Assembly: GCA_965231145.1 (NCBI GenBank)
Contig: OZ246420.1
Coordinates: 660,001 to 692,000 of the forward strand
Origin: Candidatus Saccharimonadota bacterium
GTDB taxonomy: Bacteria > Patescibacteriota > Gracilibacteria > Absconditabacterales > Absconditicoccaceae
DNA length: 32,000 nucleotides
Reading direction: 5' to 3'
Part shown: piece after piece, positions 145 to 31,123 of the stretch
How positions within the stretch are numbered: the stretch's first letter is position 1
Layout of the letters: every line of letters starts with the position of its first letter
The notes under the pieces: model-generated
The model's database searches: none
Told to the model about the DNA's origin: nothing
Seen by the model: only the letters and a program-made list of their open reading frames with translations
Translations under genes and position numbers: made by a program

Positions 145-270
145 GCATTTGCTCGTGTAATAAATTATGTAATATAATAAGACACCTTTAGTGGATATTA
201 ATTTGGTATCTTATTGCTATATAAAATTTTACATAAAAAAAAATAACCTTCAGGTTACTTTGTTTTCAAT

Positions 271-342
271 CGGTCCCACGGGGAATTGAACCCCGATTGA
301 CGGATTGAAAATCCGCTGTCCTAACCATTAGACGATGAGACC
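271..342 (-). tRNA. tRNA-Glu(UUC)
   Basis: Cloverleaf on the minus strand. Acceptor GGTCTCA/TGGGACC plus G73, anticodon loop TTTTCAA, T-loop GGTTCAATTCC. No encoded CCA. Confidence 0.9.
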
Positions 343-343
343 A

Positions 344-420
344 TGGCGGAATCGACGGGGCTCGAACCCGCGACCTCCCGCGTGACAGGCGGGCGTTCTA
401 GCCAGCTGAACTACGACTCC
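344..420 (-). tRNA. tRNA-Asp(GUC)
   Basis: Acceptor GGAGTCG/CGATTCC, anticodon loop CTGTCAC, T-loop GGTTCGAGCC. CCA is encoded. Confidence 0.9.
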
Positions 421-461
421 ACAAAGGCTAATTATCTGTATATCTTGCATTTTTAGTAGAA

Positions 462-536
462 TGGAGCCGGTTGCTGGACTTGAACCTGCGACCCACTGCT
501 TACAAGGCAGTTGCTCTACCACTGAGCTAAACCGGC
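462..536 (-). tRNA. tRNA-Thr(UGU)
   Basis: Acceptor GCCGGTT/AACCGGC, anticodon loop CTTGTAA, CCA encoded. One mismatch in the T stem. Confidence 0.85.
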
Positions 537-543
537 ATAATAA

Positions 544-620
544 TGGTGGACGATACTGGACTTGAACCAGTAACCCCCTGCTTGTAAGGCAGATGCTCTC
601 GCCAATTGAGCTAATCGTCC
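544..620 (-). tRNA. tRNA-Val(UAC)
   Basis: Acceptor GGACGAT/ATCGTCC, anticodon loop CTTACAA, T arm ACTGG-TTCAAGT-CCAGT. CCA is encoded. Confidence 0.9.
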
Positions 621-633
621 ATCAAGAGCAATA

Positions 634-900
634 TTACTTGCTCGAAGATTTATTAATCATTTTTGTCAGTCTTGATTTTTTTCTTGCTGCATTGTTCTTG
701 TGAACTATATTATGCTTAGCAGCCTTATCAATAAGCTTGTATGCAGAAGTCAAAAGAGCTTGCTTGTCTCCTTCACCCTTTACTGCTGCTTTCTTGAGCG
801 ACTTGATAGCGTTCTTCATAGCAGTCTTGTGCTGGAGATTTACTTCTCTCAGTTTCTTTGATCTTCTGTCGGCCTTCTTAGCAGCCTGTTTAATTGGCAT
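634..900 (-). CDS. rpsT: 30S ribosomal protein S20
   Basis: 88 aa, basic. MPIKQAAKKADRRSKK...HKNNAARKKSRLTKMINK matches the S20 pattern (KSAxKRxxxxxxR...HKNxAARxKSxL). TAA stop, no internal TGA. Confidence 0.9.
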   Translation of the reverse strand: MPIKQAAKKADRRSKKLREVNLQHKTAMKNAIKSLKKAAVKGEGDKQALLTSAYKLIDKAAKHNIVHKNNAARKKSRLTKMINKSSSK

Positions 901-967
901 TTCAATATAATTAATAATAATAAATGTTCTCTATAATTGCTAATGCTTCATGGGTAATTTATTTCTC

Positions 968-1039
968 CTCCGGGGGTCGGGTTCGAACCGACGGCCAATT
1001 GGTTAACAGCCAACTGCTCTACCGCTGAGCTACCCCGGA
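968..1039 (-). tRNA. tRNA-Asn(GUU)
   Basis: Acceptor TCCGGGG/CCCCGGA plus G73, anticodon loop CTGTTAA, T-loop GGTTCGAACC. Confidence 0.9.
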
Positions 1040-1125
1040 ATAACCGAGCAAAACGTAAGGGAATTTATATATATCTACTTATGCATTTCAAGGTTTTATT
1101 TTGCATAAACGATATAGTTGTAGTC

Positions 1126-1206
1126 TACCAGGAACAGGACTTGAACCTGCACGCACGAAGCACTGCGTTCTAAGCGCAGCATGTCTACCAGTTCCATCAT
1201 CCTGGC
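1126..1206 (-). tRNA. tRNA-Leu(UAG)
   Basis: Class II tRNA with a long variable arm. Anticodon stem-loop CTGCG-CTTAGAA-CGCAG. G1-U72 wobble, A73. Confidence 0.85.
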
Positions 1207-1218
1207 ATGGATGTAATT

Positions 1219-1291
1219 CTCGGGGACTAGGGGTCGAACCTAGGACCTACAGATTCAGAGTCTGTCGCTCTACCAACTAAGCTATCCCCGA
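1219..1291 (-). tRNA. tRNA-Gln(CUG)
   Basis: Acceptor TCGGGGA/TCCCCGA with U1-A72 and G73 (Gln identity set). Anticodon stem-loop ACAGA-CTCTGAA-TCTGT. Confidence 0.8.
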
Positions 1292-1345
1292 ATAAACTTA
1301 ATTATATAATGTATGGTTAATGACCTCTCTTCATACTATTTTTAT

Positions 1346-1420
<75 letters not shown>

Positions 1421-1433
1421 TCTACATTGTTAT

Positions 1434-1461
1434 GATTTTGAATTTTGCTCTTTGCATTTTA
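1434..1461. repeat. Degenerate heptamer array (4 units)
   Basis: gattttg aattttg ctctttg catttta, between two tRNA genes. Confidence 0.6.
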
Positions 1462-1475
1462 AATTATTGAGCTCC

Positions 1476-1546
1476 CTGGGGAACTAGGATTCGAACCTAG
1501 ATAGACGGAGTCAAAGTCCGGAGTCCTACCATTAGACGATTCCCCA
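1476..1546 (-). tRNA. tRNA-Gln(UUG)
   Basis: Acceptor TGGGGAA/TTCCCCA plus G73. The body resembles the E. coli tRNA-Gln (TGGGG.ATCG.C.A..GGTA.GGC). Anticodon loop CTTTGAC. Confidence 0.85.
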
Positions 1547-1548
1547 AT

Positions 1549-2151: not shown

Positions 2152-3438
2152 TTATTTAATCATTTTTACTATTTCGACTTTTGCTCTTTCTAACTGATTG
2201 TCTGTCTTGTTGTTCTGATAGCCCGTGACATCAAACGGTACATCTATATCAGGTATAAGTCCCGTACCATTCACATTTTCATCTTTTGGCGTATACCACT
2301 TTCCGATAGTATATTTAATAGCGGAACCGGAACCAAATTCAGTAATAGTCTGGATAGATCCTTTTCCATATGTCTTTATTCCTATGATCTTTGCTCCCTG
2401 TATTTCCTGCAGCGCAGCTGCAATAATTTCACCAGCCGACGCAGTCAAGCTATCCACAAGAACTACGGTAGGCGTTGTGATAAACTCTGCAAATCCATCT
2501 GAATAATACACTTCATTGTATCCCGTGTCACGATATTTCGTTGTCGTCACGATCTGCCCTTTTGCAAGGAAATGCGATGCAACCTTTACTCCGATATCAA
2601 GAAACCCTCCGCCATTTCCTCTCAGATCAAGAATGAGTCAACTAATTCACTGTTGCTGCAGTTCTGTTACCACCTTCTTCATAGCATTTTCTGTCTGCTG
2701 TCCGATGATCGAGATATTTATGTAACCGATCTTTTTGTTTGCGACGGTAAAGACATTGCTCGTCACCGATGGGATGACAACCTTCTTTCTCACGATCTTC
2801 AACGTCAATACTCTTTTTGCCGGGTCTGTTTCTGACGGACGAATAACTGTTAGTTCGACCGTGGTATCTTTTGGCCCACGGATCTTCGATACAGCAACAT
2901 CGGTAGTCATATCGATTGTCTTTTCACCATTGATCTCAGCGATAAGATCAAGCGGACGAAGTCCGGCTTCAAATGATGGCGTTCCCTTATAAACTTCCTG
3001 CACCTCTATCGCATCATTTTTCTTGAGGACCGCTGCACCGATACCTTCAAAGTCCTGCTCACCTTTAAGTTCTTCAGTAAAATTGGTATTTTGTTCAACA
3101 TCCAAAAATGTCGTATAGGGATCGTTGAGAGAAGCTACCATGCCTTTCAATGCCCATTCGAGCATCTCGCCTGTCGATATTTTTTCCTGATCGTAATACT
3201 GATTTTTCAACAGTGAATATATTTTTTCAAACTGAGTGTAATCTAAAATTCACTCTCCTGCGGTAGAAGTTTCAGAGCCGTTGCTCCAATTATTTCGCCA
3301 GTTCTGGAGCGTCACCGTCGCAGTTTCCGGCAGCATAGCTGCCGGGCGGACCATTCCGCTGGCATATACCACAACCATAGATGCTGCTCATATAATAATT
3401 CCCAAGATTCATACTCATCGATAGTGTTTCTTTTCCAT
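2152..3438 (-). CDS. ctpA: S41 family C-terminal processing peptidase with N-terminal membrane anchor
   Basis: Track fragments 2152..2550 and 2647..3210, plus an upstream TM segment, join in one frame through at least 6 TGA codons (428 aa). Motif (TGA)LILDLRGNGGG. N-terminus MEKKHY.GVGILGIIIGAASMVVV. Confidence 0.85.
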
Positions 3439-3540
3439 GTTTTGTATACGTAAATAAATATATGATCATAGTAAGTATTATATTCTTATTCTCAATGAAA
3501 AACGCTCAATGCTTAATGTTATATTATGGTTAATTATCTT

Positions 3541-3753
3541 ACCCGCCGATTTTTCCGCGCCTCCTCTCGCTGAAAGTGAGTGAATAATTAATCGAAGAGG
3601 ATCGAACCGGAGTCGCTGTGAAAGTGCGCGATGGTGAGATTCTTTCGTAGTCAATATATGAATAATAAGTCAGTCCGTATGCACTAAAATCGGCTAGCCG
3701 TTTTTGCCTACTTTTTGAGGCAATGACCAAAAAGTAGGTCCCCCGGAAGGGAG
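3541..3753 (-). ncRNA. Unclassified structured-RNA-like element, copy A
   Basis: Shares a 22-nt identical core (3644..3665) and the block TCGCGCAC-n3-CACAGCGACTCC with copy B. A 10-bp hairpin pairs 3707..3716 with 3729..3738. A long-range helix pairs 3545..3553 with 3686..3694. Both helices differ from copy B by compensatory changes. Confidence 0.45.
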
Positions 3754-3773
3754 AAAAAAGAATATATGCTTAA

Positions 3774-4328
3774 TTACTCAATTCTCTGCAGATTATAAAA
3801 CTGCTGTAAAAAGCCATCAACATTTCGGATCCAATCATTGGCATTGAAATTATTGAGCTGCATGTGAGCAAAGAGCCGAAAGCCGGGATGTTGGACGTCA
3901 AGAAATGCCGTAGCAGGAAGCGAACCTGCGGCAAAAGGTATAATAATAAATGCGCCAGATGAAATTTTTGCTGCGCCAGATGAAAGAAGCGCCGTAGTAT
4001 TTCCACCATGCGTTCGCAATATGTTTCCATCTTTCATGTGCAATGTTGCGCCCGTTGTTCCATTTCATGTAAAATAGATAATATCTGTATGCCCGCTTGC
4101 AGCAGCGAGAGCACCTGTATATTTTGCGAAGTCGATCTGATATGCATCTGCAATATTTTGCACAGTCTGTGTCACATAGAGAATCTCTGCATTGAGTTTT
4201 TTCTCATTACCAAGCCTTGCAGTAATTTGTGTAATGCTCACATATGCTTTAAAAATGAGCGTGAACAAAATCCCCGCTATAACGATAGCGATAAGGATCT
4301 CTATTAACGTAAAGGCTTTTTTTCTCAT
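3774..4328 (-). CDS. type IV pilin-like protein (prepilin-type N-terminal methylation domain)
   Basis: N-terminus MRKKAFTLIEILIAIVIAGIL. The TGA at 4065..4067 fuses track ORFs 4065..4388 and 3774..4043, giving 184 aa. Confidence 0.75.
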
Positions 4329-4408
4329 ACTATAACTTAATTTTACATGTTGAAGGTTAAAGGAGCAATACAATATTATACTTAACATTTAACATTTCAA
4401 ATTGAGCA

Positions 4409-5032
4409 TTATTTTCTGATGGCTCCTATGAAGCTTTCAAGGGTCACTTCTCCTTTGATAGATCATTTCTGATAGAGAACATGTGAAACGACCTTCAGTA
4501 ACTTTGTCGTATCAAGCTTTACGCCCGACTGATAGACTGGTTCAAAGTGTATGTATCTTGCAAAAAATGATGGAGTTCATGCGTCGTGCATCAGCACACC
4601 GCCGTTGTAAAGACCTCATGTATAATTGAGCAATCTATTACCACTCCATGTGTCCATGAAAGTAGCACCAGTAGTCGTTGCAGCAATAAAGATCTTATGT
4701 GCCTTACTCATCGCAACGCGAAAACGAGCTCATTCAGTAAATGAACCTCCACAGACTTCCCCATTGTACAGCATACCGTTTTCTAAGGCAGCGATAGCGT
4801 CGGGCTTCAGAAATGCACATTGCCGATCGACTCCTCTTTCAAGATTGGTATCACGTATATTGAAAATCAAATCAATTCCCTCCTTCGCAAGCGACTGAGC
4901 CTGCGTTCTTACCTTCATCGTATCGATGATAGAAATATTTGTCGTAATCACTCTTATGACGGCTAAAATACCGACAGCAAAAACCATCAAGGCAATCAAT
5001 ACTTCGAGTAACGTCATTCAACGTTTGAACAT
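4409..5032 (-). CDS. type IV pilin-like protein
   Basis: Leader MFKR(TGA)MTLLEVLIALMVFAVGIL. The cleavage-site Gly at -1 is the TGA at 5018..5020. Four further in-frame TGA codons extend track ORF 4730..5017 to a TAA at 4409 (207 aa). Confidence 0.8.
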
Positions 5033-5114
5033 ATTTTCTTATATTTTATTAAAAGATACAGATACGAGATACAGATGCTTTTTGTATCAGTATCAGTCAA
5101 CAGTATCTTGTTTA

Positions 5115-6023
5115 TTAATGAATAGAATTAATCTTCGTTGCAATACCAAGTCCGTCCCACTGCGCCTGTTCCCAGAGATATTCCGGCAAAATAGTATTTA
5201 TCTCGTCAATCTGAGGATAAAGCACATGTACTTCTGTATCCACGAGTCCCGCATCCCAGAGCTTTGCTTTGACTATCGAAGGATAGTGAGTTCCATATCT
5301 TTGCTCCAACAAGAGGATAACGTTTTCGGTCTTAATAATACTTTCTTTCAACGCCTTACCTATTTGAAAATCATACTCATCGAGCGCAAAAAGGTCATAC
5401 GTCTTTCCCTCATTTTGCAGATGCTGGAGCGCATGGATCGTATTTACCAGTACCCCGCCAGGAGCAATAACTGTTCCCGCTACACCTTCAAATCCAAGAG
5501 TTCTCAGATCAGTGATACCTTTGTCTGATTTTACTTTCTTTTCAAACACAGTACTATTTGTCTCCCCGTGAGGAACCCTGACATATTTTTTCCCACCTTC
5601 TGAAAGTGTATGATCTAATGATGTTTTGTCATAGACTTCACATACAGACATATATGGCATAACCATCGCTACATCCATCATCTCTGGCTGGCTTTTTATC
5701 GCATACGATGCAACACCCGCGCCAAGAGTGACTATCGTCACATTTTTCTTCTCATCAAGCGATGAAATCCATGGAAGCAGATACATCGTGTTGATCGTTT
5801 TTACGATAAGCAATACGCGATCATGCTTTTCTGTGACTGCAGCCATTTTTCCTGATAGTCCAAAATCATAGCTTACATCCGCAAGGGTCATATGAGTATA
5901 TTTTCCTTTGCTTATGGAGATATCAGCTGGTTTTTCTTCCCAGACAATCACATCAAAAGGCAAGATATCATCATGCAAAAAAAATCCCTGTTCTATATGC
6001 GACACTAAGTGTACTATTTCCAT
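5115..6023 (-). CDS. hypothetical protein, weak resemblance to the transketolase/DXS C-terminal half
   Basis: Uninterrupted 302-aa ORF. Spacing of Gly-rich and hydrophobic blocks (TLGAGVASYA, VRVPHGE, IAPGGVL...LQNEGKTYDLFAL) recalls Transket_pyr plus the C-terminal domain, but the catalytic Glu motif was not found. Confidence 0.35.
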   Translation of the reverse strand: MEIVHLVSHIEQGFFLHDDILPFDVIVWEEKPADISISKGKYTHMTLADVSYDFGLSGKMAAVTEKHDRVLLIVKTINTMYLLPWISSLDEKKNVTIVTLGAGVASYAIKSQPEMMDVAMVMPYMSVCEVYDKTSLDHTLSEGGKKYVRVPHGETNSTVFEKKVKSDKGITDLRTLGFEGVAGTVIAPGGVLVNTIHALQHLQNEGKTYDLFALDEYDFQIGKALKESIIKTENVILLLEQRYGTHYPSIVKAKLWDAGLVDTEVHVLYPQIDEINTILPEYLWEQAQWDGLGIATKINSIH

Positions 6024-6120
6024 CGAATAAACTTACCGGCTAAAATAATTGTAAATGTTGAATTCTAAATTCTAAATATAATACGGTATCTATCTTTCAT
6101 TAACTCATAATTCATAATGC

Positions 6121-6678
6121 TTAACTCGTAACTGTTTTTAAGAACGTTTCTATCTTCGAGTGGAGCTCTTCCATCGTCCCATCATTGGTGATGATATAGT
6201 CAGCTCTTTCCAAACATCATTGCAAATTAATCACAGCAGGATCATCACTATGCATTTCCTTTTCTTCGTCCTCCACAAACTTCTCAAAGGTCACGTTGTC
6301 AGTACTACTTCATCTTTCTACAATTCTATGATATCTTATCTCTCTGGGAGCATCTATGCCCAAGAGAACTATATCCTTATTTTTACGAAGCGTTTCTATC
6401 TCACCCAATGTGCGAATAGACTCAATCACAGCAGACTTATCTTGTTTTTTTGCTTTTTCATAAAGTGTATGCAGGATATAATCTCCTCCATATTCTCTTC
6501 TCATCTTTTGAGCTACTTCATACATATTTTCTCTTGTATGAGGTTTTTCCTCTTTATCTAATTGCTCGATAATAAGAGATCTTGCTGAAAGATGCACAAA
6601 TCATCTTGTATGCACAAGATAGTTCACCACCTCTCACTTTCCCGCACCGATCGTGCCCGTGATACAAATGATTGACAT
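6121..6678 (-). CDS. P-loop NMP-kinase-like protein (dephospho-CoA kinase / dNMP kinase-like)
   Basis: Walker A ITGTIGAGK(TGA), with the TGA at 6634..6636. Four TGA codons join the frame into 185 aa. Also carries ESIRT.GE..L and the RIVER(TGA)SSTD block typical of this small kinase family. Confidence 0.6.
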
Positions 6679-6779
6679 GCTTCACATAGTATAATTATGG
6701 TGCTCAGATACAACAGAAATTTAGAGCAATATCCCCCCACTATAAAATTTTAAATCTCGCAAGAGATTTCACCTTGTTA

Positions 6780-7844
6780 TTACTCTTCTGGATTATCTGA
6801 TCTCAATCCTCCCTCTTGTTGTATAACTGTGCTCAAGAAATTATACTTCTCTCTCATGCTCTCCGATGTGATATATCTCGCTTCATTATCTTCTACCTCC
6901 TCAATATAGTCAGCTGCTTCTGCGAAAAGAGTAGAAAAGACATACTCTTCGTTCGTTTCATTTTCATCTATATCACCAGATCGCTCATCATACCTTGCTT
7001 CAATATTGCCTCTACAATAGAAAGCGAGTTCACATATTTTTTGCCACAGCCAGTAAGAATATGCATTTAAGGCTCCTAATCTATATTCTGGCATCAGATT
7101 GTCTTTGAGCCAATGTTCATATGTTTCAGACATATTTACTTCAACATCATCGATAATCTCGATCGCTTTTTTTAGTTCTGCTAGCGTGGTAGACTTCCAG
7201 AGCATAAGAGCTGCAAGCGTGTGAGCTTCCCATAGGGGGGTCTCGCTATCATCTACTAGCTGCATCAGGAAACTATCCTGATCTTCTTCATCAATTGGCG
7301 CACGAGAATAAACTAGTTGTTCTAACAACAATGGTGTGATATCTTGATGTTCGAGCACAAAATCCCTAAATGCCTCTGCAGTAGGAAATGCCCTTGTATA
7401 AGACTGTAAGACATATCTGTCTCATATTTCATATCCTACCGTTTCGAAATCATATTCTTCCTTACTTCTGCGCCATTTCTTCCCCTTCTTTACATATGAA
7501 CGACGCATGTTCTTATCTTTCATATCATGCACTATATTTTCTTCCATTTTTCTCATAAAATAGTCAGATCAAAGAAATAATGCCGCTAACTCCTTTTCTG
7601 TTTGCTGAGTTGCACGATGGCGAGACAAGATATTTTTTATTTCTTTAACTAATGGAGCGTGTAAAAGGGACTCTGCCTCATTAAAGCGTATAGGATGAGC
7701 ATTGAACACCAATGCACATGCTTCCTTGGTAAAGAAATTGACGTTATCGAGGCCTTTTTTCTCTATATCAGGAAACGAACCATAACTGGCTGGCAGCAAC
7801 TGTTCTTTCTCCTGCTTTGATTTCATATCTCCTCTTTTTCTCAT
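6780..7844 (-). CDS. hypothetical protein (354 aa, acidic C-terminal half)
   Basis: Track ORFs 7569..7844 and 6780..7358 lie in the same frame and are joined through the TGA codons at 7569..7571 and 7422..7424. No domain recognised. Confidence 0.55.
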
Positions 7845-7926
7845 ATGTCACTGTGTAATTAACCATTGACAAATAGCCTTTGACGACTATTATATTGCCA
7901 TCTGTTTACATTGCAATATCAATTAT

Positions 7927-8439
7927 ATGCTCGAAAAAGAACTTAAGATACTCAATATAGAACCTTTGAAACTAATACCACAACTTGAGGCACTTGGTGC
8001 TCGCAAGGTATTTGCTGGGGTGATCGCAGATCAGTATTATGATTTCCCAGAAAATGCCCTCAAGGAAAGAGGTTATTCTTTGAGAATAAGAACAATAGAT
8101 GGGACAACACATCAACTCTGTTTTAAAGAGAAGGTAAAAGATAAGAAGTTCAAAATAAGAAAGGAATACGAGATCGATCTCGTATCTCGCGCGCAGGGCG
8201 AGTATTTTATAAAAGGATTTGGTTTGTTTCCATGTTTTTTTAAGGAAAAAATGAGACTGAGTTATGAGCTTGACGAGATAAAATTTGATATTGATTGGTA
8301 TGATGGTATGAAACCAATGCTTGAGATAGAAGCGCCGAAGAAGAAAAATATCGCAAAGTGGATCAAGAAACTTGGACTCGAGCAACATGAAACATCGAAG
8401 AAAGGAGCAAGAAAACTCTTTACGCAGTTAGCGTCATAA
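7927..8439 (+). CDS. CYTH-domain protein (class IV adenylate cyclase / triphosphate tunnel metalloenzyme family)
   Basis: 170 aa. Opens with E.K; also LRIR...K.K...R.EYE...K.R..Y.LD....D.D...G...LEIE, the alternating charged beta-strand pattern of CYTH. Confidence 0.55.
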   Translation: MLEKELKILNIEPLKLIPQLEALGARKVFAGVIADQYYDFPENALKERGYSLRIRTIDGTTHQLCFKEKVKDKKFKIRKEYEIDLVSRAQGEYFIKGFGLFPCFFKEKMRLSYELDEIKFDIDWYDGMKPMLEIEAPKKKNIAKWIKKLGLEQHETSKKGARKLFTQLAS

Positions 8440-8445
8440 TTTCTT

Positions 8446-9597
8446 ATGAATAAAGCTTCGCTATCCGCAGATCATAATAGTATCAATAATCAATTATCTG
8501 CAGACACTCAGATTCAACATGCAATTGCATGCATTTTCAGTTCTGATAAAGCCCGCAATGAGGCTTTTTTCAAAAATAACGTATTGAAACTTCCGGAAGC
8601 GAAAGTTATTTTTTTAGAAAATGATTATGACAGACTTATTCCTTCTTTTGTCTGGGATAGTCATAGTCATCACAATGCAAGCGCTGGATATATTGAAAAA
8701 GATGGACTTTGGTGATTTATCGATCAAGATGGAAATGAGATAACCCCACCAAGATATACAGAGCGTCCTTTTTATCACATCACTGCAGATGTGCAAGACG
8801 CCGCTACGGGAAAATATGGTACTGTAGATATTAAGGGACAGACATACAATGAGTGTAAATATGAGTACATTACGAATAGTGACTATAATGTCGCTAAGTT
8901 AGATGGTAAGCGAGGTATTGTCGGTGCACATGATAAAGAGCTACTACCTTTTATCTACGATGATATTTACATAACCCAAGCACACGAAGAACATAAGGAT
9001 GAATTAGCAATTGCTCTCGTGAGAGAAGGAAATAATATCTATTGTATTGATGCGATAACGAAACAACCCATAGCAGTTCCTGAAAAGCGAAAGACGCATG
9101 AAAGGCAGTTTAAGTGAGCTGACAAGAAGTATGGCTTCATCAGTAAGCAAGGATATATTATACCTGCTGAGTTTGATGAACTTTATACATCTGCTAAAGA
9201 GAACAAATATCTTGTCTATCAAAACGATCTACGAAAAAGACTCACGTTAGATGCTATGGGAAATATGCATCTGGATATACTAGATGATGCTATGCAAGCG
9301 AGCTGTCATGAGCGTTATCATCATAAGCAAGAAAGCACAAGTAGTATCCTAGACGAGAAGAATGATTCCACAATAGAATGGTCTATGCCACAAGACCACG
9401 CCGCTGAACTGGAAAATTATAGATGAATAAAAACCGATGATAAGCGAAGCATTGTGAATGAAGGAACAAATGAAATAATATTGCCTGCAAAATTTGATGA
9501 GATCCATCTGCATTATGGCTCTCGCAAAGCATGGTGATGGATAAAACAATGGAATGCTCTTGTAGAAGTTTCATTACCCAAAAAAGCCATGCCATAG
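8446..9597 (+). CDS. WG-repeat protein
   Basis: Four in-frame TGA codons join 8446..8715, 8791..9117 and downstream sequence into 383 aa ending at TAG 9595..9597. Repeats: KDGLW(TGA)FIDQDGNEITPPRY, GK(CGA)GIVGAHDKELLPFIYDDI, KKYGFISKQGYIIPAEFDEL, DK(CGA)SIVNEGTNEIILPAKFDEI. Confidence 0.8.
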
Positions 9598-9629
9598 CGG
9601 CGGGCTTTTTTATTATATATTTTCTTTTA

Positions 9630-9838
9630 CTCCTGCCGGAGGGGCGTCACTTTTTGGCATATCCCTAAAAAGTAACCAAAAAGGTCTAGTCGGATATAGC
9701 ACTACGAGCCTGTGAGTTATTCATATATTGACTACGAAGTATTTCGCTGTCGCGCACATCACAGCGACTCCAGCTCAATACTACCATTCCTATCATCCCT
9801 CAAGACCGTAAAGAGGAGACGTGGGGTATATCCGACGA
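9630..9838 (+). ncRNA. Unclassified structured-RNA-like element, copy B
   Basis: Same architecture as copy A. 5' hairpin CTCC-TGCC-GGAG. Hairpin pairing 9646..9655 with 9667..9676. Long-range helix GTCGGATATA (9689..9698) with TATATCCGAC (9827..9836). Identical 22-mer at 9717..9738. Preceded by a TATATT box and followed by a terminator. Confidence 0.45.
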
Positions 9839-9867
9839 ATAAGAATAGATTTTCATGTTAGGTATAA

Positions 9868-9895
9868 CAAAAAACTCGACATATGCCGAGTTTTT
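9868..9895. terminator. Bidirectional hairpin terminator
   Basis: AAAAAACTCG-acatatgc-CGAGTTTTT. An A-run and a T-run flank a GC-containing stem. It lies between ncRNA copy B (+) and the VTC gene (-). Confidence 0.5.
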
Positions 9896-9903
9896 CCTTC
9901 CTT

Positions 9904-9938
9904 AATTTTGCTCTTTGATCTCTGCTCTTTGAATTAAT
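9904..9938. repeat. Degenerate heptamer array (5 units)
   Basis: aattttg ctctttg atctctg ctctttg aattaat. Its first 14 nt are identical to 1441..1454. Confidence 0.65.
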
Positions 9939-10822
9939 TAGAAATCCTTGAGCTTCACATGTGGTACACGTGCAAGCTCTTCTTTGACTTCAAGAAGTTT
10001 CTTTTGTACTTTTTCCACTGTGTTGATTTCTTTATGATGGTGCTTATCGATAAACTTAATCGTTTTCTCAAATTTGTCATGGCTCTTCATTCTACCGAAA
10101 TAGTAGACACCAAGACAGTATTTGCTACAACCTGAAGCAGCTTTAATCTTCATCTTCTTCATGAGCTTTGTACTATATCCATTTGCTGTAGAAGATTTAC
10201 TTTCAACAATAGCCACATTACTAAGTTTTATGGTGCGAGCTGAAGGATCTCTGAGATCGTTGAGTTCTACATCGAAGTCGATCGTCAATCTTTCGTCGTT
10301 CGTCTTAGAACAAAGCGTAATACGCTTACATTTTGTCTTAATAGATGGCATGATCTCTTCCTTAGCAAAAGGAAGCCCCATAGACTGACACAAAGACGTA
10401 TAAAATCTCTTGGCGTCTTTGTTCATTACACCGTGCCCCTCTACTCCACATGGATAACGGAACTTACGAATCACTTTTCCTTCTTTTTGCTTCATTTCAA
10501 AGTATGCAAGATCTCCGCTATCAACATAATGTCTCGTTCTTATCTTAATTCTATTTTCTTCTCCCTGCTCATGTTGCTTATAGAAAAGATAATCTTTCGT
10601 ATCCATATAGATGCTATCGTACGTGAAAATATTAACATCTTTGATCGTCAATACATAGAACTTATCCTGAAGCGCAGAAAGAATCTTATCGAGCTGTGTG
10701 AGGTCAATAAGGTATTTTGTATCAATACGCTCCAAAAAACTCATAGAAGCATTGAGCTGATCAAGAGAGATAGTTGTATACTCCTGAAGAGCCTGTGCAA
10801 AATGTTTCATTTCCTTATTCAT
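9938..10822 (-). CDS. VTC-domain (polyphosphate polymerase-like, CYTH-related) protein
   Basis: Start taken at MNKEMKH (ATG 10822), inside the longer track ORF. ERIDTKYLI, IRTRHY and YFEMKQK strands fit the VTC/triphosphate-tunnel pattern. 294 aa. Confidence 0.6.
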   Translation of the reverse strand: MNKEMKHFAQALQEYTTISLDQLNASMSFLERIDTKYLIDLTQLDKILSALQDKFYVLTIKDVNIFTYDSIYMDTKDYLFYKQHEQGEENRIKIRTRHYVDSGDLAYFEMKQKEGKVIRKFRYPCGVEGHGVMNKDAKRFYTSLCQSMGLPFAKEEIMPSIKTKCKRITLCSKTNDERLTIDFDVELNDLRDPSARTIKLSNVAIVESKSSTANGYSTKLMKKMKIKAASGCSKYCLGVYYFGRMKSHDKFEKTIKFIDKHHHKEINTVEKVQKKLLEVKEELARVPHVKLKDF

Positions 10823-11045
10823 GGTCGTCCTTTTGTTTACCCATATAAAGCAGTTTCGTAACAATAGCTTATTATATAGGAAGATCTTGGCGCATGCGAA
10901 AAAGAGACAAGAAAATGAGGGAAGCACAGAAAACAACCATTGACATATCATATTAAATATACAATGATGTTATTTATTCTCAAAAATGGCTAAAATCAAT
11001 CTACAAAAAAAGCCCACCTTTATAGTGTAGCTTCTTATTATTGCT

Positions 11046-20803: not shown

Positions 20804-21646
20804 CTAAAACTTATCCTGTCTTTCATTTTCATTAAGCGTCTTATTATTATCATCATACCGCTCGTTGTATCCATTCGAATTCCTTCAAAGAATAATATTT
20901 GATGCTCAGCTTGGAGACTTGAATGTATAGTTTTGAGTAAACTCAAATGATTGATCATCTATCATTTTAATAACTCACAAATCAAATAGTTTTGTTTGCT
21001 GATTTTGCACATAAGGAATAGAAGCTTTAGGAATATCTTTTCTTCACTTAGATCCAGCAAGAACTACTACTCATTCTGCAGAATATATTCATTTTCCCGA
21101 TGCTGACGGTCAAGTGCAATGATATATTTTTAGCTGCTTCGTATCAACATCCGGCGTCTTGAGAATAGGATATCCTACGCTTGAAATAAGTAAATCTATG
21201 TCTTCTATAAAATCATTTAACACCGATTCTTTATGCAAAGATAGTTTTTTATAAGTAGGTTCTGTTTTATTCATGAGCTGATATCTTTTTGCTTCTTTTG
21301 CCTTAAGTATAGTTTTATATTCTAGATAAGTCACATCTCCAAGATCTAGTGTATTATTATCATATACAAATCATATAGCCACATCTCGATAATCCTTCTT
21401 CATAACATGATCTTTCCACCTTTTAGCAAGATTATCTGTTTGTCCAATGTATACAATTTCGTCAGCATTTTCATTAGATCCAAACAAAAAGTATAATCCG
21501 GTATGCGATGCTCATTCTACTTCAGCAAACTCAGACAATTTTTTTCTTGGCACGACAAAACACTTAATAGATTTTCCTGGCATATCCAGTATCTTTATTC
21601 AGGAATATGTTCCATCAATGAGAAATGTGATCAGTGTTTTTGCCAT
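20804..21646 (-). CDS. GIY-YIG nuclease family protein with DUF4357-like C-terminal domain
   Basis: 280 aa after reading at least 12 in-frame TGA codons. GLYFLFG....EIVYIGQTDNLAKRW.DH (GIY-YIG). C-terminal GS..R......SPSGASNIILGRNSNGY.E.Y...NKTL matches my recollection of DUF4357. Confidence 0.7.
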
Positions 21647-26776: not shown

Positions 26777-29761
26777 CTAAATCTTTGGAAACACATCTAT
26801 AACAAAGTACCTTCTGAGTGCTGCATTAAAAGCATTATAATCCAGTTTTCCGTCTTTCACAACTTTGTCATATGGTATCTGGATATTTTTATACATATCC
26901 TGGTTCACACCGTCGTTATCAAGAGTCAGCTGGATGTATTTCGTTTCAACCTTTGTTGCTGGATCTACTCTTCTTACGATTGCTGCATCTTCGATCTCCA
27001 TACGGTTACTAGATGTGCCAAAATAGTATTCTGAGTTAATAAAAAATGTTCTTAATTTATCAATTTTTGCTTTTAACTTTGCATCTTTCCTATCTTCTTC
27101 TGTAAAGATTCTATTTATTATAATGCTCTTATTGATAAAGTTAGCATCTATAAGCTGCTGATCTGCGTTCTCTTCTGCTGTTTTTTTAGCGAGCTCTGGA
27201 TTTGCTGGTGCTGGCTTTCCTTTGGCTGTATCTGTCTTAGGGGCTGGAACCTTTGGCTTAACGCCTGGAACTGCATTATTCTTTTTTGCTTCTTCAGCCT
27301 TTTTCTTATCAGCTTCTGCCTTCACAGGCGCCATAGCTTTTCTAAGATATGAAAGCATATCATCACTATCTTGTCTGACATCTATAACATAAGAAGAATT
27401 TCCATCATTGCGTTTTATTATCCCATTTGCTTGGTCAAGAAGTATACTTTCTTCTTTCATAGGATATCCTTCTTTTTTCAGCTGAGCCGTAACGCGGGTT
27501 ACTTTATCTACAGTAATTTTATTCATATACTCATTGAGTCTTCAAGCTGTCCAGACTGAATTCTGACTTAGCTTTACTTGATACGGCAGAAGTGCTTCAA
27601 AAGTCTTCTGTGGTATAAATTTCTCTGTAACATCCGCAACATTTTTATTGAGATAGTTCAATAGCGCTTGCTTATTTTTATTATTCTTTTCTCCTTTCAG
27701 TGTTGGAAAGTTAGTATAGTCTGTTACTAAATCCTTAGTCATCCCAAGACTACCCGCTCCTCTTTGCTCTATTTCACCTGTAGAAGAAAGCTCAAAACGC
27801 GTTTCTGTTTTGTCTTCTGGTCTATAGAGATCTTTTATTCTATTGATAAGATTTGCTACTCTTATAGCCTCTCCCTGGTCGGCAAAAGTTATGTTGAGAC
27901 CATCAACTTTCTTTTCTTTCATATCAAGCGCTGTTTCATTTCCATAAGAGGAAAGCTTCACCTTACTCGGATCATTATAATAAAGTATATTCATCTTGAA
28001 AGTTTTCGTATCAATCTTTGTCCCTGCAAATGCCTTATTGATATGATAACCCATGTATTTAGACAACTGCTTATCTATGTCTAAGACAAGGTTTGTCAAT
28101 TTTCCATCGCTCCAAGCGAAACGAACGACGCCAGAAACAACATCGTTATTGAGCGTTGTGACTAATGCGTTTTTATATTTTGCCAATTTTTCATAGTTTT
28201 CCTGAAATTTCTTAGCACCTTCAGGAGTCCCAGTAGGTTCAGCAAATGACATGGTCGTAATTTCTGCTCTCGCGCTTTCAAAAGCTTTCTCTCTTAACAG
28301 AGCGAATCTAGAATTCTCCTTTGGCATATCTGATTGTTCTACATTTATAAGTGTTTTTAACACCTCTTTTTCTATCAGAATACACTTATCAACTACATTA
28401 TACTTTGGATCATTGATATATGACTCAAAAAGGTCAGCAACTTTGTCATACTTTTTATCAAGCGCTGTTACCGGAACATCCGCTTTTGTTTCTGGTGTAG
28501 GCGCGGGAATTGGCGCTGTTTCAGTTGATTTAGAAGTAGTTACTTCTTTCTTTTTACTTGCTTTTGGCTTTGTAGCAAAATTATCAGGATTTGTTCCATC
28601 ATCAGCCCATTCATAATCAGGATCTACGTTAGGCACATTATTGATAATCTTTACATGATGTTTCGCAGGATCTTTCATAAGCTCCTCTTTTGTAACAACT
28701 GGTATCGTAGGAGTTACTTCCTTTGCTTTTTTTGTCGCTTCTTTTTTAGGTGTTGCTGGTTTTTCTGTCTTAGCTGCAGTAGTTTTCTTTACTTCTTTCT
28801 TTGGCTCCTGTTTTGTATCTGTATCTGCCTCCGTATCAGTATCTGTTTCCATAAGCTTCGTCGCATAGTTATCTGTTGCTTTTTCGTCTACCCAGTCGTA
28901 TCCATCTTCAGGTTGTATCTTAAGATGATTAACGTCAGAATCAAAGTCTGCTAGTGCTTCTTCACGCGTTATTTCTGTCTCATTTTCTGCTTCTTCTCCA
29001 ATTTTCTTTACTGCAACATTATCTGGATTTGAAGCATCAACAAACTCATACCCATCTTGTGGCACTAAACGTAAGTGATTTTTCTCCATAGACTCAACAC
29101 TAGCGAGCGCCTCTTCAGCAGAAAGTGTTTTTACTTCATCACTCTCAGCAGCATTCTCTGTTTTATTATTAGTATCTGATTCTGTGGTATTTGTTGCTTT
29201 TACCGCGACAATATTATTTTTATCCCAACTTGTATCATCAAGTGCAGAAATAATCTTCGTAAGTGTCTCTTGTCCTGCCCATCCATCAACAGCGATCTGA
29301 TCATCTGCATGAGCAGTATTCCATGCATTTTGAAATTCTTGTATTCTCTTATTTGTATCTTTACTACCATAGATACCATCTATACCTTGCTCAAATTTAC
29401 ATCCAAGCTTAGCCAATGCAAGCTGCATATTAAATACTAATCCAGCACCCATAGCACTATACACATCCATAAATGCTATATGGTCATCTGGGTTTGCACT
29501 GTTTTTTGCAGCTTCAAACTTACCGACAGCTGACTGCAAAACCATCTTCACGTGTTCTACCGTGAGATCTTTTTCCAGCATAGCTTTCAGAGTCTCGCCC
29601 GAAAGATTGTTCATTACCTCTTTTTTAAGGTCCTGAAGCTCTCCTTTCGTTTCATAGATCTCCTTATAGCTATCCTTGATTTTATTTTCGAGCCAATTGA
29701 TCTCTCCGATTTTCTTCGAGATCTGATTGTCACCGATTTCGTTTTTGATGAGTTCTGCCAT
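26777..29761 (-). CDS. large PG-binding-domain protein with novel ~45-aa repeats (994 aa)
   Basis: Track ORFs 27542..29761 and 26777..27526 share one frame and are joined by the TGA at 27542..27544. Helical N-terminal domain, PG_binding_1-like segment (MQLALAKLG....GIDGIYG..T...IQEFQ......DGWAGQETL), 3 HL-x-P-x-GY-(E/D)-W-x-D...DN-x-A-x-K repeats, then a long unrecognised C-terminal part. An internal restart at 27526 cannot be excluded. Confidence 0.6.
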
Positions 29762-29800: not shown

Positions 29801-31123
29801 TTATGAAATAGTTTTTCTTCTTTGAAGTGACGTTGCATAATTATCTTCACTACTCTTATCTAACCAATCATATCCTCTCTCTGGCTTGATATCTACTGGG
29901 TAATTTCCTTCCTTCAGATATCTCAATACATCTGCATGACTTATCATAGGAGCATCTTCAACCATAGTTCCTGTTTTTCTCACAGCAAGATTATCAGGAT
30001 AGTTCCCAGCCCACTCGTAACCCTCCTGAGGAACAAAACGTAAGTGATTTCTTTCCATCGTTTCTCTATCTTTTATGGCATCATTATAACTCAACGTCAT
30101 GCCTTCAAGTGGTTCTTCTGGTCCATACACATTTTGTGCAGGCATTGGCTTCTCTTCTACTACTGGGAAATCACCTTCTACTGCTTTGATTTTACTCTTT
30201 CCATCAGCAGATGTTATGGTTCCACTATTATTCTCATCTTCTACATCCGTATTATTTTCTGGCTGAGCTCATCCTTCGCGCAACTTCGTTGCGTAATTTT
30301 CACTATCCTGCCCATCTGCCCATTCGTAATTTTTTACAGGCTTAAGACCAAGATGGTATTTATCCATATTTGGATCTTTAAAGAAATCTTCATAACTCAT
30401 AAAAGGCGTATTCATAAGTCTCTTTCCTTTTACCTTCATAGCAATATTTGCCGGATCTGTAGGATCCACAAACTCATACCCATCTTGTGGCATAAACTCG
30501 AGATGATTATCTATCATCGCTTGTCTATCTTTAATAGCCTCTTGTGCTGTGACTTTAGGCACTTCTGTTACGACATTCTCTCCTTCTTGTCTTTCTACTT
30601 TTCTCCCACTCATGCGAGATACATCCCACTTTGGATCATCAAGTGCAGCTACAATTCTGACGAGAGTAGCTTCTACGTCTGATGTGTCGATAATAGTATC
30701 TTCAGGATGAGTAGTGTTCCATACTTTCTGAAATTCTTGTACTCTTTTTCCTGTATCTGATGTACCATACATACCATCGATACCCTTATCAAAGTGACCT
30801 CCAAGCTTAGCAAGAGCGAGCTGCATGTTGAATGTAATACCCGCATCTAGATTACTATAGGTAGCTTGCTTTATAGATGGATCATCAATTCCTGCCTTAA
30901 GGACATTTTTTACATGATCAACCGTAAGCTCTTTTTCAAGAAGCTCTTTCAACGTCTTACCCGAAAGATTATTCTTTATTTCCTTTTGCAGATCCTGCAA
31001 TTCTCCTTTCGTCTCATAGATTTCCTTATAACTATCTTTAATTTTACTTTCGAGTGAATTGATATCTCCGATTTTTGTAGAGATCGTGTTATCACCGATT
31101 TCATTTTTGATAAGTTCAGTCAT
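29801..31123 (-). CDS. paralogous PG-binding-domain protein with 4 copies of the same repeat (440 aa)
   Basis: Track ORFs 30269..31123 and 29801..30145 are joined in frame by the TGA at 30269..30271. The first ~170 aa are paralogous to the 994-aa protein. TAA stop at 29801. Confidence 0.6.

What the first reader, a model, noticed from the sequence alone, without database searches (positions are those of the whole stretch)
3541..9838. Two diverged inverted copies of a ~210-nt element with compensatory base changes: candidate novel structured RNA
Copy A (3541..3753, minus) and copy B (9630..9838, plus) are roughly two-thirds identical by eye, but they keep the same layout.
1. A small 5' hairpin. 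A is CUCCC-UUCC-GGGGG with a U-G pair; B is CUCC-UGCC-GGAG with U-A at the same position.
2. A 10-bp hairpin. A pairs CCUACUUUUU with AAAAAGUAGG; B pairs GUCACUUUUU with AAAAAGUAAC. Two base pairs are swapped in a compensatory way.
3. A conserved CAAAAA..GG..CUAG linker.
4. A long-range helix closing about 130 nt. A pairs GCCGAUUUU with AAAAUCGGC; B pairs GUCGGAUAUA with UAUAUCCGAC. Almost every position differs, yet pairing is kept.
5. A 22-nt identical core, UUAUUCAUAUAUUGACUACGAA, and the block UCGCGCAC-n3-CACAGCGACUCC.

Both copies lie just 3' of a gene on the same strand. Both are preceded by the same ATATATT-(T)CTTTT-(N)CTCC leader, a possible -10 box and start site. Copy B is followed by a terminator. 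I could not match the element to tmRNA, RNase P, SRP, 6S or common riboswitch or ribozyme cores from memory.
Basis: seen in the sequence. Interest (0 to 1): 0.7.

Follow-up and report, generated by a model that had tools for sequence, protein, structure and literature searches.

The report
Widespread structured intergenic repeat element
The two look-alike 210-base segments are real and fold as described. They are two members of a very large, unannotated family of structured intergenic repeats that shares an almost invariant 45-base hairpin module across three bacterial phyla, so they are more likely a REP/MITE-like repeat than a unique RNA gene.

Summary
Copy A (3541-3753, read on -) and copy B (9630-9838, +) are 69% identical. 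They share a small hairpin, a 12-bp hairpin, a CAAAAA..CUAG linker, a 9-10 bp closing helix of different sequence, and an exact 22-nt core. Rfam 15 has no match.

They are not a private pair. Hosts are code-25 Gracilibacteria, Bacteroidota and Xanthomonadales.

All copies share a near-invariant module: hairpin with loop CAUUGCC, an A-tract, then CUAG. A variable helix starts at the G of CUAG. Both helices covary strongly.

Copies are multi-copy and sometimes tandem or in alternating orientation. In Xanthomonadales they form the arms of 650-900 bp palindromes. They are present or absent at orthologous sites in relatives with 73-91% identical proteins, and assemblies break inside them. No protein gene travels with them.

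The transcribed strand is unresolved; several indicators favour the strand opposite to the one proposed.

Best reading (about 0.5): a REP/BIME/MITE-like structured repeat, transcribed passively or as small RNAs. A true sRNA family with a conserved handle remains possible (about 0.3).

The parts
3740..3753 (-). Copy A, P1: small hairpin CUCCC-UUCC-GGGGG (one U.G pair), followed by a U-rich run
   Evidence: Read directly. Flagged as terminator-like. Recovered by RNAalifold.
3707..3738 (-). Copy A, P2: the conserved hairpin CCUACUUUUUGG / loop UCAUUGCC / UCAAAAAGUAGG
   Evidence: Covariance model R1 scores 58.5 bits over 3692-3740. P2 covariation across the family is shown.
3694..3706 (-). Copy A, linker CAAAAACGG plus CUAG. 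The A-tract repeats the 3' strand of P2.
   Evidence: CAAAAA and CTAG columns are invariant in the alignment, but that is partly forced by the search pattern.
3545..3694 (-). Copy A, P3 domain. The closing helix pairs GCCGAUUUU (3686-3694) with AAAAUCGGC (3545-3553). It encloses the variable domain, which holds the 22-nt core (3644-3665) and the hairpin UCGC..GCGA (3613-3631).
9630..9641 (+). Copy B, P1: small hairpin CUCC-UGCC-GGAG
9646..9676 (+). Copy B, P2: GUCACUUUUUGG / loop CAUAUCC / CUAAAAAGUAAC. It has one C.A mismatch and one G.U pair.
   Evidence: Model R1 scores 59.7 bits over 9644-9691.
9677..9689 (+). Copy B, linker CAAAAAGGU plus CUAG
9689..9836 (+). Copy B, P3 domain. The closing helix pairs GUCGGAUAUA (9689-9698) with UAUAUCCGAC (9827-9836). 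It encloses the 22-nt core (9717-9738) and the hairpin GUCGC..GCGAC (9749-9768).
9869..9895 (.). Bidirectional terminator AAAAAACUCG..CGAGUUUUU, lying between copy B and the 3' end of the VTC gene. Relatives lack it, so it came in with copy B.
   Evidence: L010 and L135 have only the ancestral terminator, which corresponds to window 9580-9611.
3761..3766 (-). TATATT box 7 nt upstream of P1 of copy A. The matching box for copy B is at 9616-9621(+). It is a possible -10 element, but part of it is ancestral flank.
   Evidence: L013 has GCTTATATT at the same place without the element.

Best explanation
The two segments are members of a large family of short, strongly structured, multi-copy intergenic repeat elements. 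The family is of the REP/BIME/BOX/MITE kind.

Each unit has two parts:
- A nearly invariant module of about 45 nt. It is a hairpin with a U5:A5 stem and a 7-nt loop CAUUGCC, then a second A-tract, then CUAG.
- A variable domain. Its first helix always starts at the G of CUAG. The helix sequence differs from copy to copy.

Shown:
- The family exists, and both helices covary.
- Copies are numerous, and sometimes tandem or inverted.
- Copies are gained and lost between close relatives.
- Copies sit mostly near gene 3' ends.
- No protein gene travels with them.

Inferred:
- Units multiply as DNA. An enzyme encoded elsewhere would recognise the folded hairpin plus the CTAG tetranucleotide, as RAYT and IS200-type enzymes do with REP hairpins plus GTAG. 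Duplication and recombination are the alternative.
- Units are transcribed passively with neighbouring genes, or from chance promoters.
- In those transcripts the stable hairpins, flanked by U- and A-tracts, would act as 3'-end barriers or terminators.
- The near-identity of the module across phyla means the hairpin sequence itself is read by a conserved partner that has not been found.
For: Family size and hosts:
- Host contigs range from 27% to 69% GC.
- Hosts are Xanthomonadales (GltX neighbours named Rudaea, Tahibacter, Dokdonella), Bacteroidota (T9SS and TonB-type proteins) and code-25 contigs.

Conservation not forced by the search pattern:
- Loop CAT(T/C)GCC occurs in nearly all of 125 distinct copies.

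Covariation:
- P2: 95.7% of cells pair. 68 cells changed on both sides, against 17 in shuffles (0 of 500 shuffles reach it). The loop-closing pair is GC 30, UA 9, CG 6, AU 5.
- P3: 56 of 110 distinct copies have a helix scoring at least 8 that starts exactly at the G of CUAG, against 2.1% of shuffles. These helices use 38 different 9-mers.
- Inner hairpins change by compensation between close copies, for example CCCGC..ACGGG versus CCCAC..GUGGG in L036/L043.

Repeat-like behaviour:
- Model R1 finds 2 copies in the window, 0 in L010, L011 and L138, only an E of about 1 chance-level match in L137, 1 in L013, at least 7 in the 6.6-kb L043 and at least 5 in L098.
- Four exact-pattern copies lie on one 124-kb contig.
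- Contigs of the source genome and of L135 end inside copies.
- Tandem or nested copies occur in L105, L053, L054 and L070.
- L043 has a 570-nt array alternating two unit types in opposite orientation.
- Xanthomonadales units are arms of 650-900 bp imperfect palindromes. The second arm of L047 carries the true reverse complement of P2.

Insertion polymorphism:
- Copy B plus a new terminator lies between the VTC stop codon and the ancestral terminator. That site is empty in L135 (91% identical VTC), L010, L011 and L013.
- The pilin-S41 spacer holds copy A here, a 109-111 aa gene in L011/L013, and nothing in L137/L010.
- L013 has a short copy between BipA and its terminator that L010 lacks.

Position:
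- In 30 Gracilibacteria copies the downstream gene is convergent in 23, and only 3 copies lie between divergent genes.

No partner gene:
- Two all-against-all comparisons of flanking ORFs gave only a chance ABC-F cluster.
- No canonical Bacteroidota -7 promoter box sits at a fixed place in 53 of 59 Bacteroidota copies.
Against: - No transposase, RAYT or recombinase is linked to the family. The one RAYT seen (L131) is flanked by a different REP.
- The window copies have no terminal inverted repeats.
- Target-site duplication is not shown. A 9-bp direct repeat ATTAAGCAT flanks copy A, but copy B has only ATTTTC.
- Known REP and MITE families are lineage-specific. A 45-nt module kept almost unchanged across three phyla while everything else diverges is not what selfish repeats usually show. 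It fits a functional RNA or a conserved protein-binding site better.
- The two window copies keep a 22-nt identical core, and a TATATT box lies 7-9 nt upstream of P1. Copy B arrived with its own downstream terminator. This is what a small RNA gene would look like.
- The first 150 nt after CUAG have a consistent strand asymmetry (C>G in 90 of 112 copies). That implies a strand-specific constraint.
Confidence: 0.5

Rival explanations
1. A true family of small non-coding RNAs. The invariant hairpin, A-tract and CUAG module would be a handle for a conserved RNA-binding partner or a stability cap. The variable P3 domain would carry the specific function.
For: - Covariation in P1, P2, P3 and inner hairpins.
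- Cross-phylum conservation of the module.
- A 22-nt core identical between two otherwise 69% identical paralogues.
- A TATATT box upstream of both copies, and TATAAT-like boxes plus a T-run upstream of many Gracilibacteria copies.
- Copy B came with its own terminator.
- Most Gracilibacteria copies are not 5' leaders of genes on the proposed strand. Only 7 of 30 have a same-strand gene downstream.
- Consistent strand asymmetry.
Against: - There is no synteny, and relatives with 73-91% identical proteins lack the copies.
- Tandem, nested and alternating-orientation arrays and palindromic pairs are odd for RNA genes.
- No promoter motif sits at a fixed position in most Bacteroidota copies.
- The strand is unresolved. 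After correcting for composition both strands fold equally well (z -3.83 versus -3.78). G.U and A.C counts in P3 are equal (24 versus 26).
- AT-rich spacers give TATA-like boxes by chance.
Confidence: 0.3
2. The functional strand is the reverse complement of the one proposed. On that strand the module reads U-tract, then U-tract:A-tract hairpin. It would form a compact three-tract structure, either a U.A-U triple helix or a two-state alternative pairing. This would cap the 3' side of the variable domain, as an ENE-like stability element or a switch in 3' UTRs and small RNAs.
For: - The three tracts change together. They are 4/4/4 in L043/L095 and the right arm of L047. They are 6/6/6 in L037/L093/L098 and L130. 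UUUCUUU, UUUCUUU and AAAGAAA occur in eight Xanthomonadales right arms. UUCUCUUU, UUUCUCUU and AAGAGAAA occur in L113.
- 12 of 52 cells at one P2 pair are C.A on the proposed strand, which is G.U on the other strand.
- The opposite strand is purine-rich.
- Between co-directional genes the opposite strand is the gene strand in 13 of 16 cases.
- Bacteroidota group 3 has a TAnnTTTG box on the opposite strand in 6 of 8 copies.
- A near-threshold TwoAYGGAY match lies on the opposite strand in L118 (41.2 bits, threshold 43).
Against: - The outer P2 pairs covary and sit between the first U-tract and the helix. That leaves no linker for a simple intramolecular triplex.
- The tract data fit direct repeats (alternative pairing, or repeated binding sites) as well as mirror repeats.
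- U5/A5/A5 were forced by the search pattern in most copies.
- On the opposite strand no terminator follows the module.
- Window copies A and B carry G.U pairs on the proposed strand.
Confidence: 0.15
3. A DNA recombination or transposition site. The P2 palindrome has two 9-11 bp arms around a 7-bp asymmetric spacer, followed by a third direct arm. It would be a core site for a tyrosine recombinase or an HUH enzyme, with CTAG as the cut or target site.
For: - The arm-spacer-arm-third-arm layout.
- CTAG lies 9-10 nt from the hairpin foot in all copies.
- Near-perfect Watson-Crick helices with as many A.C as G.U pairs.
- Insertion polymorphism and inverted pairs.
- Background knowledge: IS630 targets CTAG, and IS608 cuts 10 nt 3' of its right-end hairpin.
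Against: - No recombinase or transposase is nearby in about 120 loci.
- The loop-closing and outer pairs of P2 covary through four different Watson-Crick pairs. That fits a folded single strand, not a duplex site read by one protein.
- Nothing conserved lies beyond P1, so the module is not the end of a longer element.
- What follows P3 is not TA or TAG, so P3 is not an IS630-type insert.
Confidence: 0.05

Closest known systems
REP / BIME elements of Proteobacteria (mobilised by RAYT Y1 transposases)
   Same: Both are short extragenic hairpins next to a conserved tetranucleotide. Both are present in many copies per genome. Both lie mainly at gene 3' ends and between convergent genes. Both occur singly, as inverted pairs and in alternating-orientation arrays. 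Both are transcribed with neighbouring genes. Neither has coding capacity.
   Different: In REPs the hairpin itself is species-specific and GC-rich, and the tetranucleotide (GTAG) is 5' of it. Here an AT-rich hairpin is kept across three phyla, the tetranucleotide is CTAG on the 3' side, and a second, variable helix follows. No RAYT flanked by these units was found. The one RAYT seen has another REP.
BOX elements of Streptococcus pneumoniae and other modular repeats (ERIC, RUP, Correia/NEMIS MITEs)
   Same: Both have a modular build of a conserved module plus a variable middle. Both fold stably, are intergenic and multi-copy, and vary in presence between strains. The Xanthomonadales form has long terminal inverted repeats like a MITE.
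   Different: Those families are confined to a genus or family and have recognisable TIRs and often TA duplications. The window copies have no TIRs, and no duplication has been demonstrated.
TwoAYGGAY RNA (Rfam RF01731, Csr/Rsm-like clan)
   Same: In one gammaproteobacterial-type copy (L118) the inner domain, read on the opposite strand, has two hairpins with AGGGA(U/C) loops. It scores 41.2 bits against a threshold of 43. Xanthomonadales copies carry several GGAU-loop hairpins.
   Different: The score is below the threshold. It applies to one sub-lineage only. It does not cover the conserved module, and the window copies give no match.
ENE / MALAT1-type RNA triple helices
   Same: On the opposite strand the order is U-tract, U-tract, A-tract, and the three tracts change together.
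   Different: There is no stem-loop between the U-tracts, and the A-tract is not at a known 3' end. The geometry is doubtful because the outer stem pairs form. No bacterial example is listed in a 2026 review of RNA triple helices (PMC13541005).

Membership tests
Any Rfam 15 family | Covariance-model score at or above the gathering threshold | tested here: not met
   The window at gathering threshold gave only 9 tRNAs. Region 3300-10100 at E up to 10 gave nothing on the copies. Fifteen further loci at gathering threshold gave only tRNAs. Sixteen more at the E-value threshold gave only a sub-threshold TwoAYGGAY match in L118.
tRNA / tmRNA | ARAGORN detection | tested here: not met
   One search found 9 tRNAs at 270-1547 and none at the copies.
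MITE | Terminal inverted repeats | tested here: not met
   The ends of copies A and B, and of Gracilibacteria group 4, share no inverted similarity. Long TIRs exist only in the Xanthomonadales composite form.
MITE | Target-site duplication | tested here: inconclusive
   The 9-bp direct repeat ATTAAGCAT flanks copy A, whereas copy B has only ATTTTC. Empty sites in relatives are too diverged to place the junctions.
MITE | Many copies, small, non-coding, presence/absence polymorphism | tested here: met
MITE | A related autonomous IS with the same ends | tested here: not met
   No transposase cluster was found among 685 flanking ORFs. There was no match in the plasmid or phage collections, though the low-complexity filter may hide the module.
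REP / BIME | Extragenic palindromes in high copy number, at gene 3' ends, in alternating-orientation clusters | tested here: met
REP / BIME | GTAG head plus a species-specific hairpin, and a RAYT gene flanked by the same REP | tested here: not met
   The tetranucleotide is CTAG and lies 3' of a cross-phylum hairpin. The only RAYT found (L131 5026-5575) is flanked by a different REP.
Independent small-RNA gene | Own promoter and terminator on a defined strand | tested here: inconclusive
   A TATATT box lies upstream of both copies, and a terminator follows B. There is no fixed Bacteroidota promoter box in most copies. Strand indicators conflict.
Independent small-RNA gene | Expression as a discrete transcript | not testable with these tools
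   No transcript data are available here.
ENE-like triple helix | Third-strand U-tract that covaries with a U:A helix and can reach its major groove | tested here: inconclusive
   The tracts change coordinately. The data do not separate mirror repeats from direct repeats, and the paired outer stem leaves no linker.

The most novel reading that the evidence does not exclude
The 45-nt module is an RNA element, probably on the strand opposite to the one proposed, that is kept almost unchanged in Gracilibacteria, Bacteroidota and Xanthomonadales. It would be kept because it folds into a three-tract structure, either a U.A-U triplex or a two-state hairpin, that is read by a universal partner or protects RNA 3' ends. 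The many units would then be a new class of bacterial structured RNAs with a common cap or handle and variable bodies.
Probability: 0.2. Interest if true: 0.85.

Novelty: new variant of a known kind. Interest (0 to 1): 0.6.

Why it matters
If the family is a repeat element, it is an unusual one. Its recognition module is conserved across phyla that share little else, including small-genome, recoded Gracilibacteria. That implies a widespread and still unknown mobilising or binding factor. It would also give a handy marker of genome plasticity and of assembly breaks in these lineages.

If it is an RNA family, it would be one of the most widely distributed unannotated bacterial RNA motifs, and possibly a first bacterial RNA cap of the triple-helix kind.

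Either way, covariance model R1 and the module pattern now make a census, transcript mapping in cultured Bacteroidota or Rhodanobacteraceae, and a search for the partner directly feasible.

Tried and rejected
- Known RNA families (tmRNA, RNase P, SRP including the Alu-domain layout, 6S, Y RNA, riboswitches, ribozymes): no Rfam or ARAGORN hit.
- TnpB/IscB omega-RNA, retron, tracrRNA or bridge RNA: none of the required proteins is next to any copy.
- Protein-coding reading: the 63-aa ORF in copy A is broken in B. The frame that ends at the TAG of CTAG has no upstream ORF.
- Sigma-54, sigma-70 or Bacteroidota promoter inside the module: the spacings do not fit. This was checked by eye on the alignment.
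- Exact-core scan of species-representative genomes with TTCATATATTGACTACGA: only 6 chance hits in unrelated bacteria.
- Viral contigs, plasmids and phages: no copies.
- Literal sequence and keyword searches of papers: nothing.
- Strand call from folding energy: the opposite strand is more stable in 45 of 58 copies. This vanishes after dinucleotide-shuffle normalisation.
- IS630-type insertion of the P3 domain at CTAG: the base after P3 is never TA or TAG (listing).
- Strict mirror-repeat proof of a triplex: the L113 tracts share a self-mirror 7-mer, so they do not discriminate.
- Inverted partner modules as a general feature: found only in the Xanthomonadales form, L043/L095, and the window pair itself.

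Full report
**1. What is in the window**

The window is AT-rich (38% GC). It uses UGA as a sense codon: ORFs of 100 aa or more total 7,580 aa with table 11 and 16,170 aa with table 25/4.

With that code, copy A (read on the minus strand) lies between a pilin-like gene (3774-4388, N_methyl motif) and an S41 peptidase gene (2152-3438). Copy B lies after a WG-repeat gene (8446-9597) and faces the 3' end of a VTC-domain gene (9938-10951).

The sequences are as described. Identity is 69.4% over 222 aligned columns. The 22-nt core occurs exactly twice, against none in shuffles.

Three details needed correction:
- B's hairpin 2 has a C.A mismatch.
- The second block has a 2-nt spacer in B.
- The closing helices end at 3545 and 9836.

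Single-sequence folds recover the closing helix in both copies, with z-scores near -2. RNAalifold on A, B and the closest relative found later (L070) recovers P1, P2 and P3, with four compensatory pairs in P3.

**2. Not a known RNA**

Rfam 15, searched on both strands, gives only nine tRNAs in the window at gathering threshold. At E up to 10, nothing matches the copies. ARAGORN finds no tRNA or tmRNA there. The neighbouring proteins are ordinary: pilins, a kinase-like AAA protein, CYTH, VTC and BipA. None belongs to a guide-RNA, retron or transposon system.

**3. Relatives of the genome**

Homologues of the VTC protein led to syntenic contigs with 69-91% identical proteins. Gene order is conserved, but the elements are not.
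- In L011 and L013 the pilin-S41 spacer holds a real 109-111 aa gene instead of copy A.
- In L137 and L010 that spacer is short and empty.
- VTC and CYTH are adjacent, with one shared terminator, in L010, L011 and L013.
- In L135 (91% identical VTC) the WG gene is present, but copy B and its extra terminator are absent.
- Conversely, L013 has a short copy between BipA and its terminator that L010 lacks.
- The L135 contig begins and ends inside other copies.
- The source genome's own Logan contigs also break inside copies A and B.

The elements therefore turn over quickly and behave as repeats in assemblies.

**4. The family**

The L013 copy shares only the small hairpin, the 10-12 bp hairpin, the CAAAAA-NNN-CUAG linker and a closing helix around just 47 nt.

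I scanned metagenomes with a pattern built from what the three copies share: CTTTTTG-N8-13-AAAAAG-N4-CAAAAA-N3-CTAG. The fetched loci held 134 copies, besides the two in the window.

Hosts fall into three groups:
- Contigs of 27-46% GC with almost no table-11 ORFs (code 25).
- Bacteroidota, recognised by T9SS sorting domains and TonB-type receptors.
- Xanthomonadales of 62-69% GC, whose GltX matches Rudaea, Tahibacter and Dokdonella.

Features the pattern did not force are nevertheless conserved:
- The 7-nt loop CAT(T/C)GCC.
- Pairing of four more base pairs outside the U5:A5 core.
- A helix that starts at the G of CUAG.

On a 52-sequence alignment, P2 pairs in 95.7% of cells. It has 68 double-sided changes, against 17 in shuffles (0 of 500 shuffles reach it). 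Slid controls pair at 44-60%.

For P3, 56 of 110 distinct copies have a helix scoring at least 8 anchored at that G, against 2.1% of shuffled sequences. These helices use 38 different 9-mers and span 27 to about 230 nt.

Inner hairpins also change by compensation between close copies. Sub-families share further motifs. One is a GC hairpin followed by ACUCAC-UUC-RGYUCGAU. Another is GAAACUCG-hairpin-CUCAAACAG.

Rfam has nothing for 31 further loci except a sub-threshold TwoAYGGAY match in one of them. The module is absent from viral contigs, and BLAST found it in neither plasmids nor phages. The literal sequence is not in the paper library.

**5. Repeat-like behaviour**

A covariance model of the module (R1) finds the following:
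- 2 copies in the window.
- None in L010, L011 or L138, and only an E of about 1 chance-level match in L137.
- 1 in L013.
- 2 truncated copies at the ends of L135.
- At least 7 in the 6.6-kb L043.
- At least 5 in L098.
- An inverted second copy in L047.

L105, L053, L054 and L070 carry tandem or partial duplicates. L043 is a tandem array with a 570-nt period that alternates two unit types in opposite orientation.

In Xanthomonadales the unit is one arm of a 650-900 bp imperfect palindrome. The other arm is a diverged inverted copy, down to P1 and the outer flank AGTGCAGAGCTTCC / GGAAGCTCTGCACTT.

No protein family recurs next to the units. Two all-against-all comparisons gave only ABC-F ATPases by chance. 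Motif screens found one RAYT-like gene (L131), and it is flanked by a different REP.

In 30 Gracilibacteria copies the gene downstream of the proposed strand is convergent in 23. Only three copies lie between divergent genes. Elements that sit at gene 3' ends show this pattern.

**6. Which strand?**

The evidence is mixed.

For the proposed strand:
- TATATT boxes lie 7-9 nt before P1 in A and B, and similar boxes plus a T-run occur in many AT-rich copies.
- Copy B's inserted segment ends with its own terminator.
- A and B carry G.U pairs on this strand.

For the opposite strand:
- 12 of 52 cells at one P2 pair are C.A on the proposed strand, which is G.U on the other.
- Xanthomonadales P1 stems likewise show A.C.
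- The first 150 nt after CUAG are C- and T-rich on the proposed strand in 90 and 88 of 112 copies.
- Between co-directional genes, the opposite strand is the gene strand in 13 of 16 cases.
- Eight Bacteroidota copies of one group have a TAnnTTTG box on the opposite strand in 6 cases.
- The TwoAYGGAY near-match lies on the opposite strand.

Folding energy favours the opposite strand, but this is a composition effect: z-scores are -3.83 and -3.78. G.U and A.C counts in P3 are 24 and 26. Most Bacteroidota copies show no promoter box at a fixed place on either strand. Arrays with alternating orientation mean that both strands are co-transcribed somewhere.

**7. A structural clue**

The 3' strand of P2 (CCAAAAAG) and the linker (CCAAAAAG) are direct repeats. 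On the opposite strand the order is U-tract, U-tract, loop, A-tract.

In copies that escape the strict pattern, the three tracts change together:
- Four residues each in L043/L095 and the right arm of L047.
- Six each in L037/L093/L098 and L130.
- UUUCUUU, UUUCUUU and AAAGAAA in eight Xanthomonadales right arms.
- UUCUCUUU, UUUCUCUU and AAGAGAAA in L113.

Left and right arms of one element can differ, and two tract types coexist in one contig. The coupling therefore looks internal to each unit rather than set by one protein's specificity.

It fits either a U.A-U(C+.G-C) triple helix or alternative pairing of the A-tract with either U-tract. The data do not separate mirror repeats from direct repeats. 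The covarying outer stem also leaves no linker for a simple triplex. I therefore treat this as a lead only. A 2026 review lists no such bacterial element.

**8. Interpretation**

The family's copy number, turnover, arrays, palindromic pairs, 3'-end location and lack of linked genes fit best with a REP/BIME/BOX/MITE-like structured repeat. The hairpin plus tetranucleotide would be read, probably in single-stranded form, by a factor encoded elsewhere. The hairpins would act in transcripts as barriers or terminators. These last steps are inferred, not shown.

Cross-phylum near-identity of an AT-rich hairpin, while all else diverges, does not fit a routine selfish repeat. That is the main reason to keep the RNA-family reading alive. 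It is also why the finding is more interesting than an ordinary MITE.

Their interpretation is partly supported: the element is structured and unannotated. It is not unique to this genome, it is not shown to be an RNA gene, and the strand is uncertain.

Noticed in passing
window 270-1547 (-): An array of nine tRNA genes (Glu, Asp, Thr, Val, Asn, Leu, Gln, Met, Gln) at the start of the window.
   Followed up: no
whole window: UGA is read as a sense codon. ORFs of 100 aa or more total 7,580 aa with table 11 and 16,170 aa with table 25/4. Many genes appear fragmented in public table-11 gene calls of the same DNA (L001-L003).
   Followed up: partly
window 3439-3773; L011 15348-15867; L013 15337-15897; L137 about 9495-9640: The pilin-S41 spacer is a variable spot. 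It holds element A here, a 109-111 aa gene with its own promoter and terminator in L011/L013, and nothing in L137/L010.
   Followed up: yes
window 8446-9597 (+): The WG-repeat gene is absent from L010, L011 and L013, where VTC and CYTH are adjacent. It is present in the 91% relative L135. It is therefore a separate, older insertion than copy B.
   Followed up: partly
window 9898-9935: A short direct repeat, CAAAGAGCA-GAGAT-CAAAGAGCA, lies on the minus strand between the VTC stop codon and the new terminator. Similar low-complexity CAAAG/GATCAAAAC text occurs in the BipA-DUF4142 spacer of L010.
   Followed up: no
window 20804-21646 (-): A 280-aa protein with a GIY-YIG-type nuclease motif (IVYIGQTDNLAKRWKDH). 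Not examined further.
   Followed up: no
window 26777-29761 (-) and 29801-31123 (-): Two adjacent large genes share a nearly identical N-terminus (MAELIKNEIGDN.. and MTELIKNEIGDN..), so they are tandem paralogues.
   Followed up: no
L019 2100-2750; L113 8400-9100; L047 400-1020: In Xanthomonadales the unit is one arm of a 650-900 bp imperfect palindrome. The palindrome is packed with hairpins whose loops read GGAUG on one arm and CAUCC on the other, which resembles Csr/Rsm sponge RNAs. L118 gives a TwoAYGGAY match just under threshold.
   Followed up: partly
L025, centre of the palindrome: A long (GGCTCTTGCTTT)n-type microsatellite fills the centre of the palindromic element.
   Followed up: no
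L043 1700-2560 (and L095): A tandem array with a period of about 570 nt. It alternates a unit with four-residue tracts and loop GGUCAUG with a canonical unit in the opposite orientation.
   Followed up: partly
L131 5026-5575 (-): A RAYT-like Y1 transposase gene (..MPNHVHLL.., ..YIHNNPV..) flanked on both sides by its own inverted REP, GCGCGAGCTTGAA / TTCAAGCTCGCGC. This REP is unrelated to the module.
   Followed up: partly
L098 2500-10600: The Bacteroidota contig with five or more units also carries a run of defence-type genes (DUF4238, putative AbiC, a non-specific endonuclease-like gene).
   Followed up: no
L109 2253-2287 (+): A sub-threshold Whalefall-1 match (30 bits, threshold 37) lies about 90 nt from a unit, on the other strand. 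It is a CCCCC-UUUGG-GGGGG hairpin resembling P1 of copy A.
   Followed up: no
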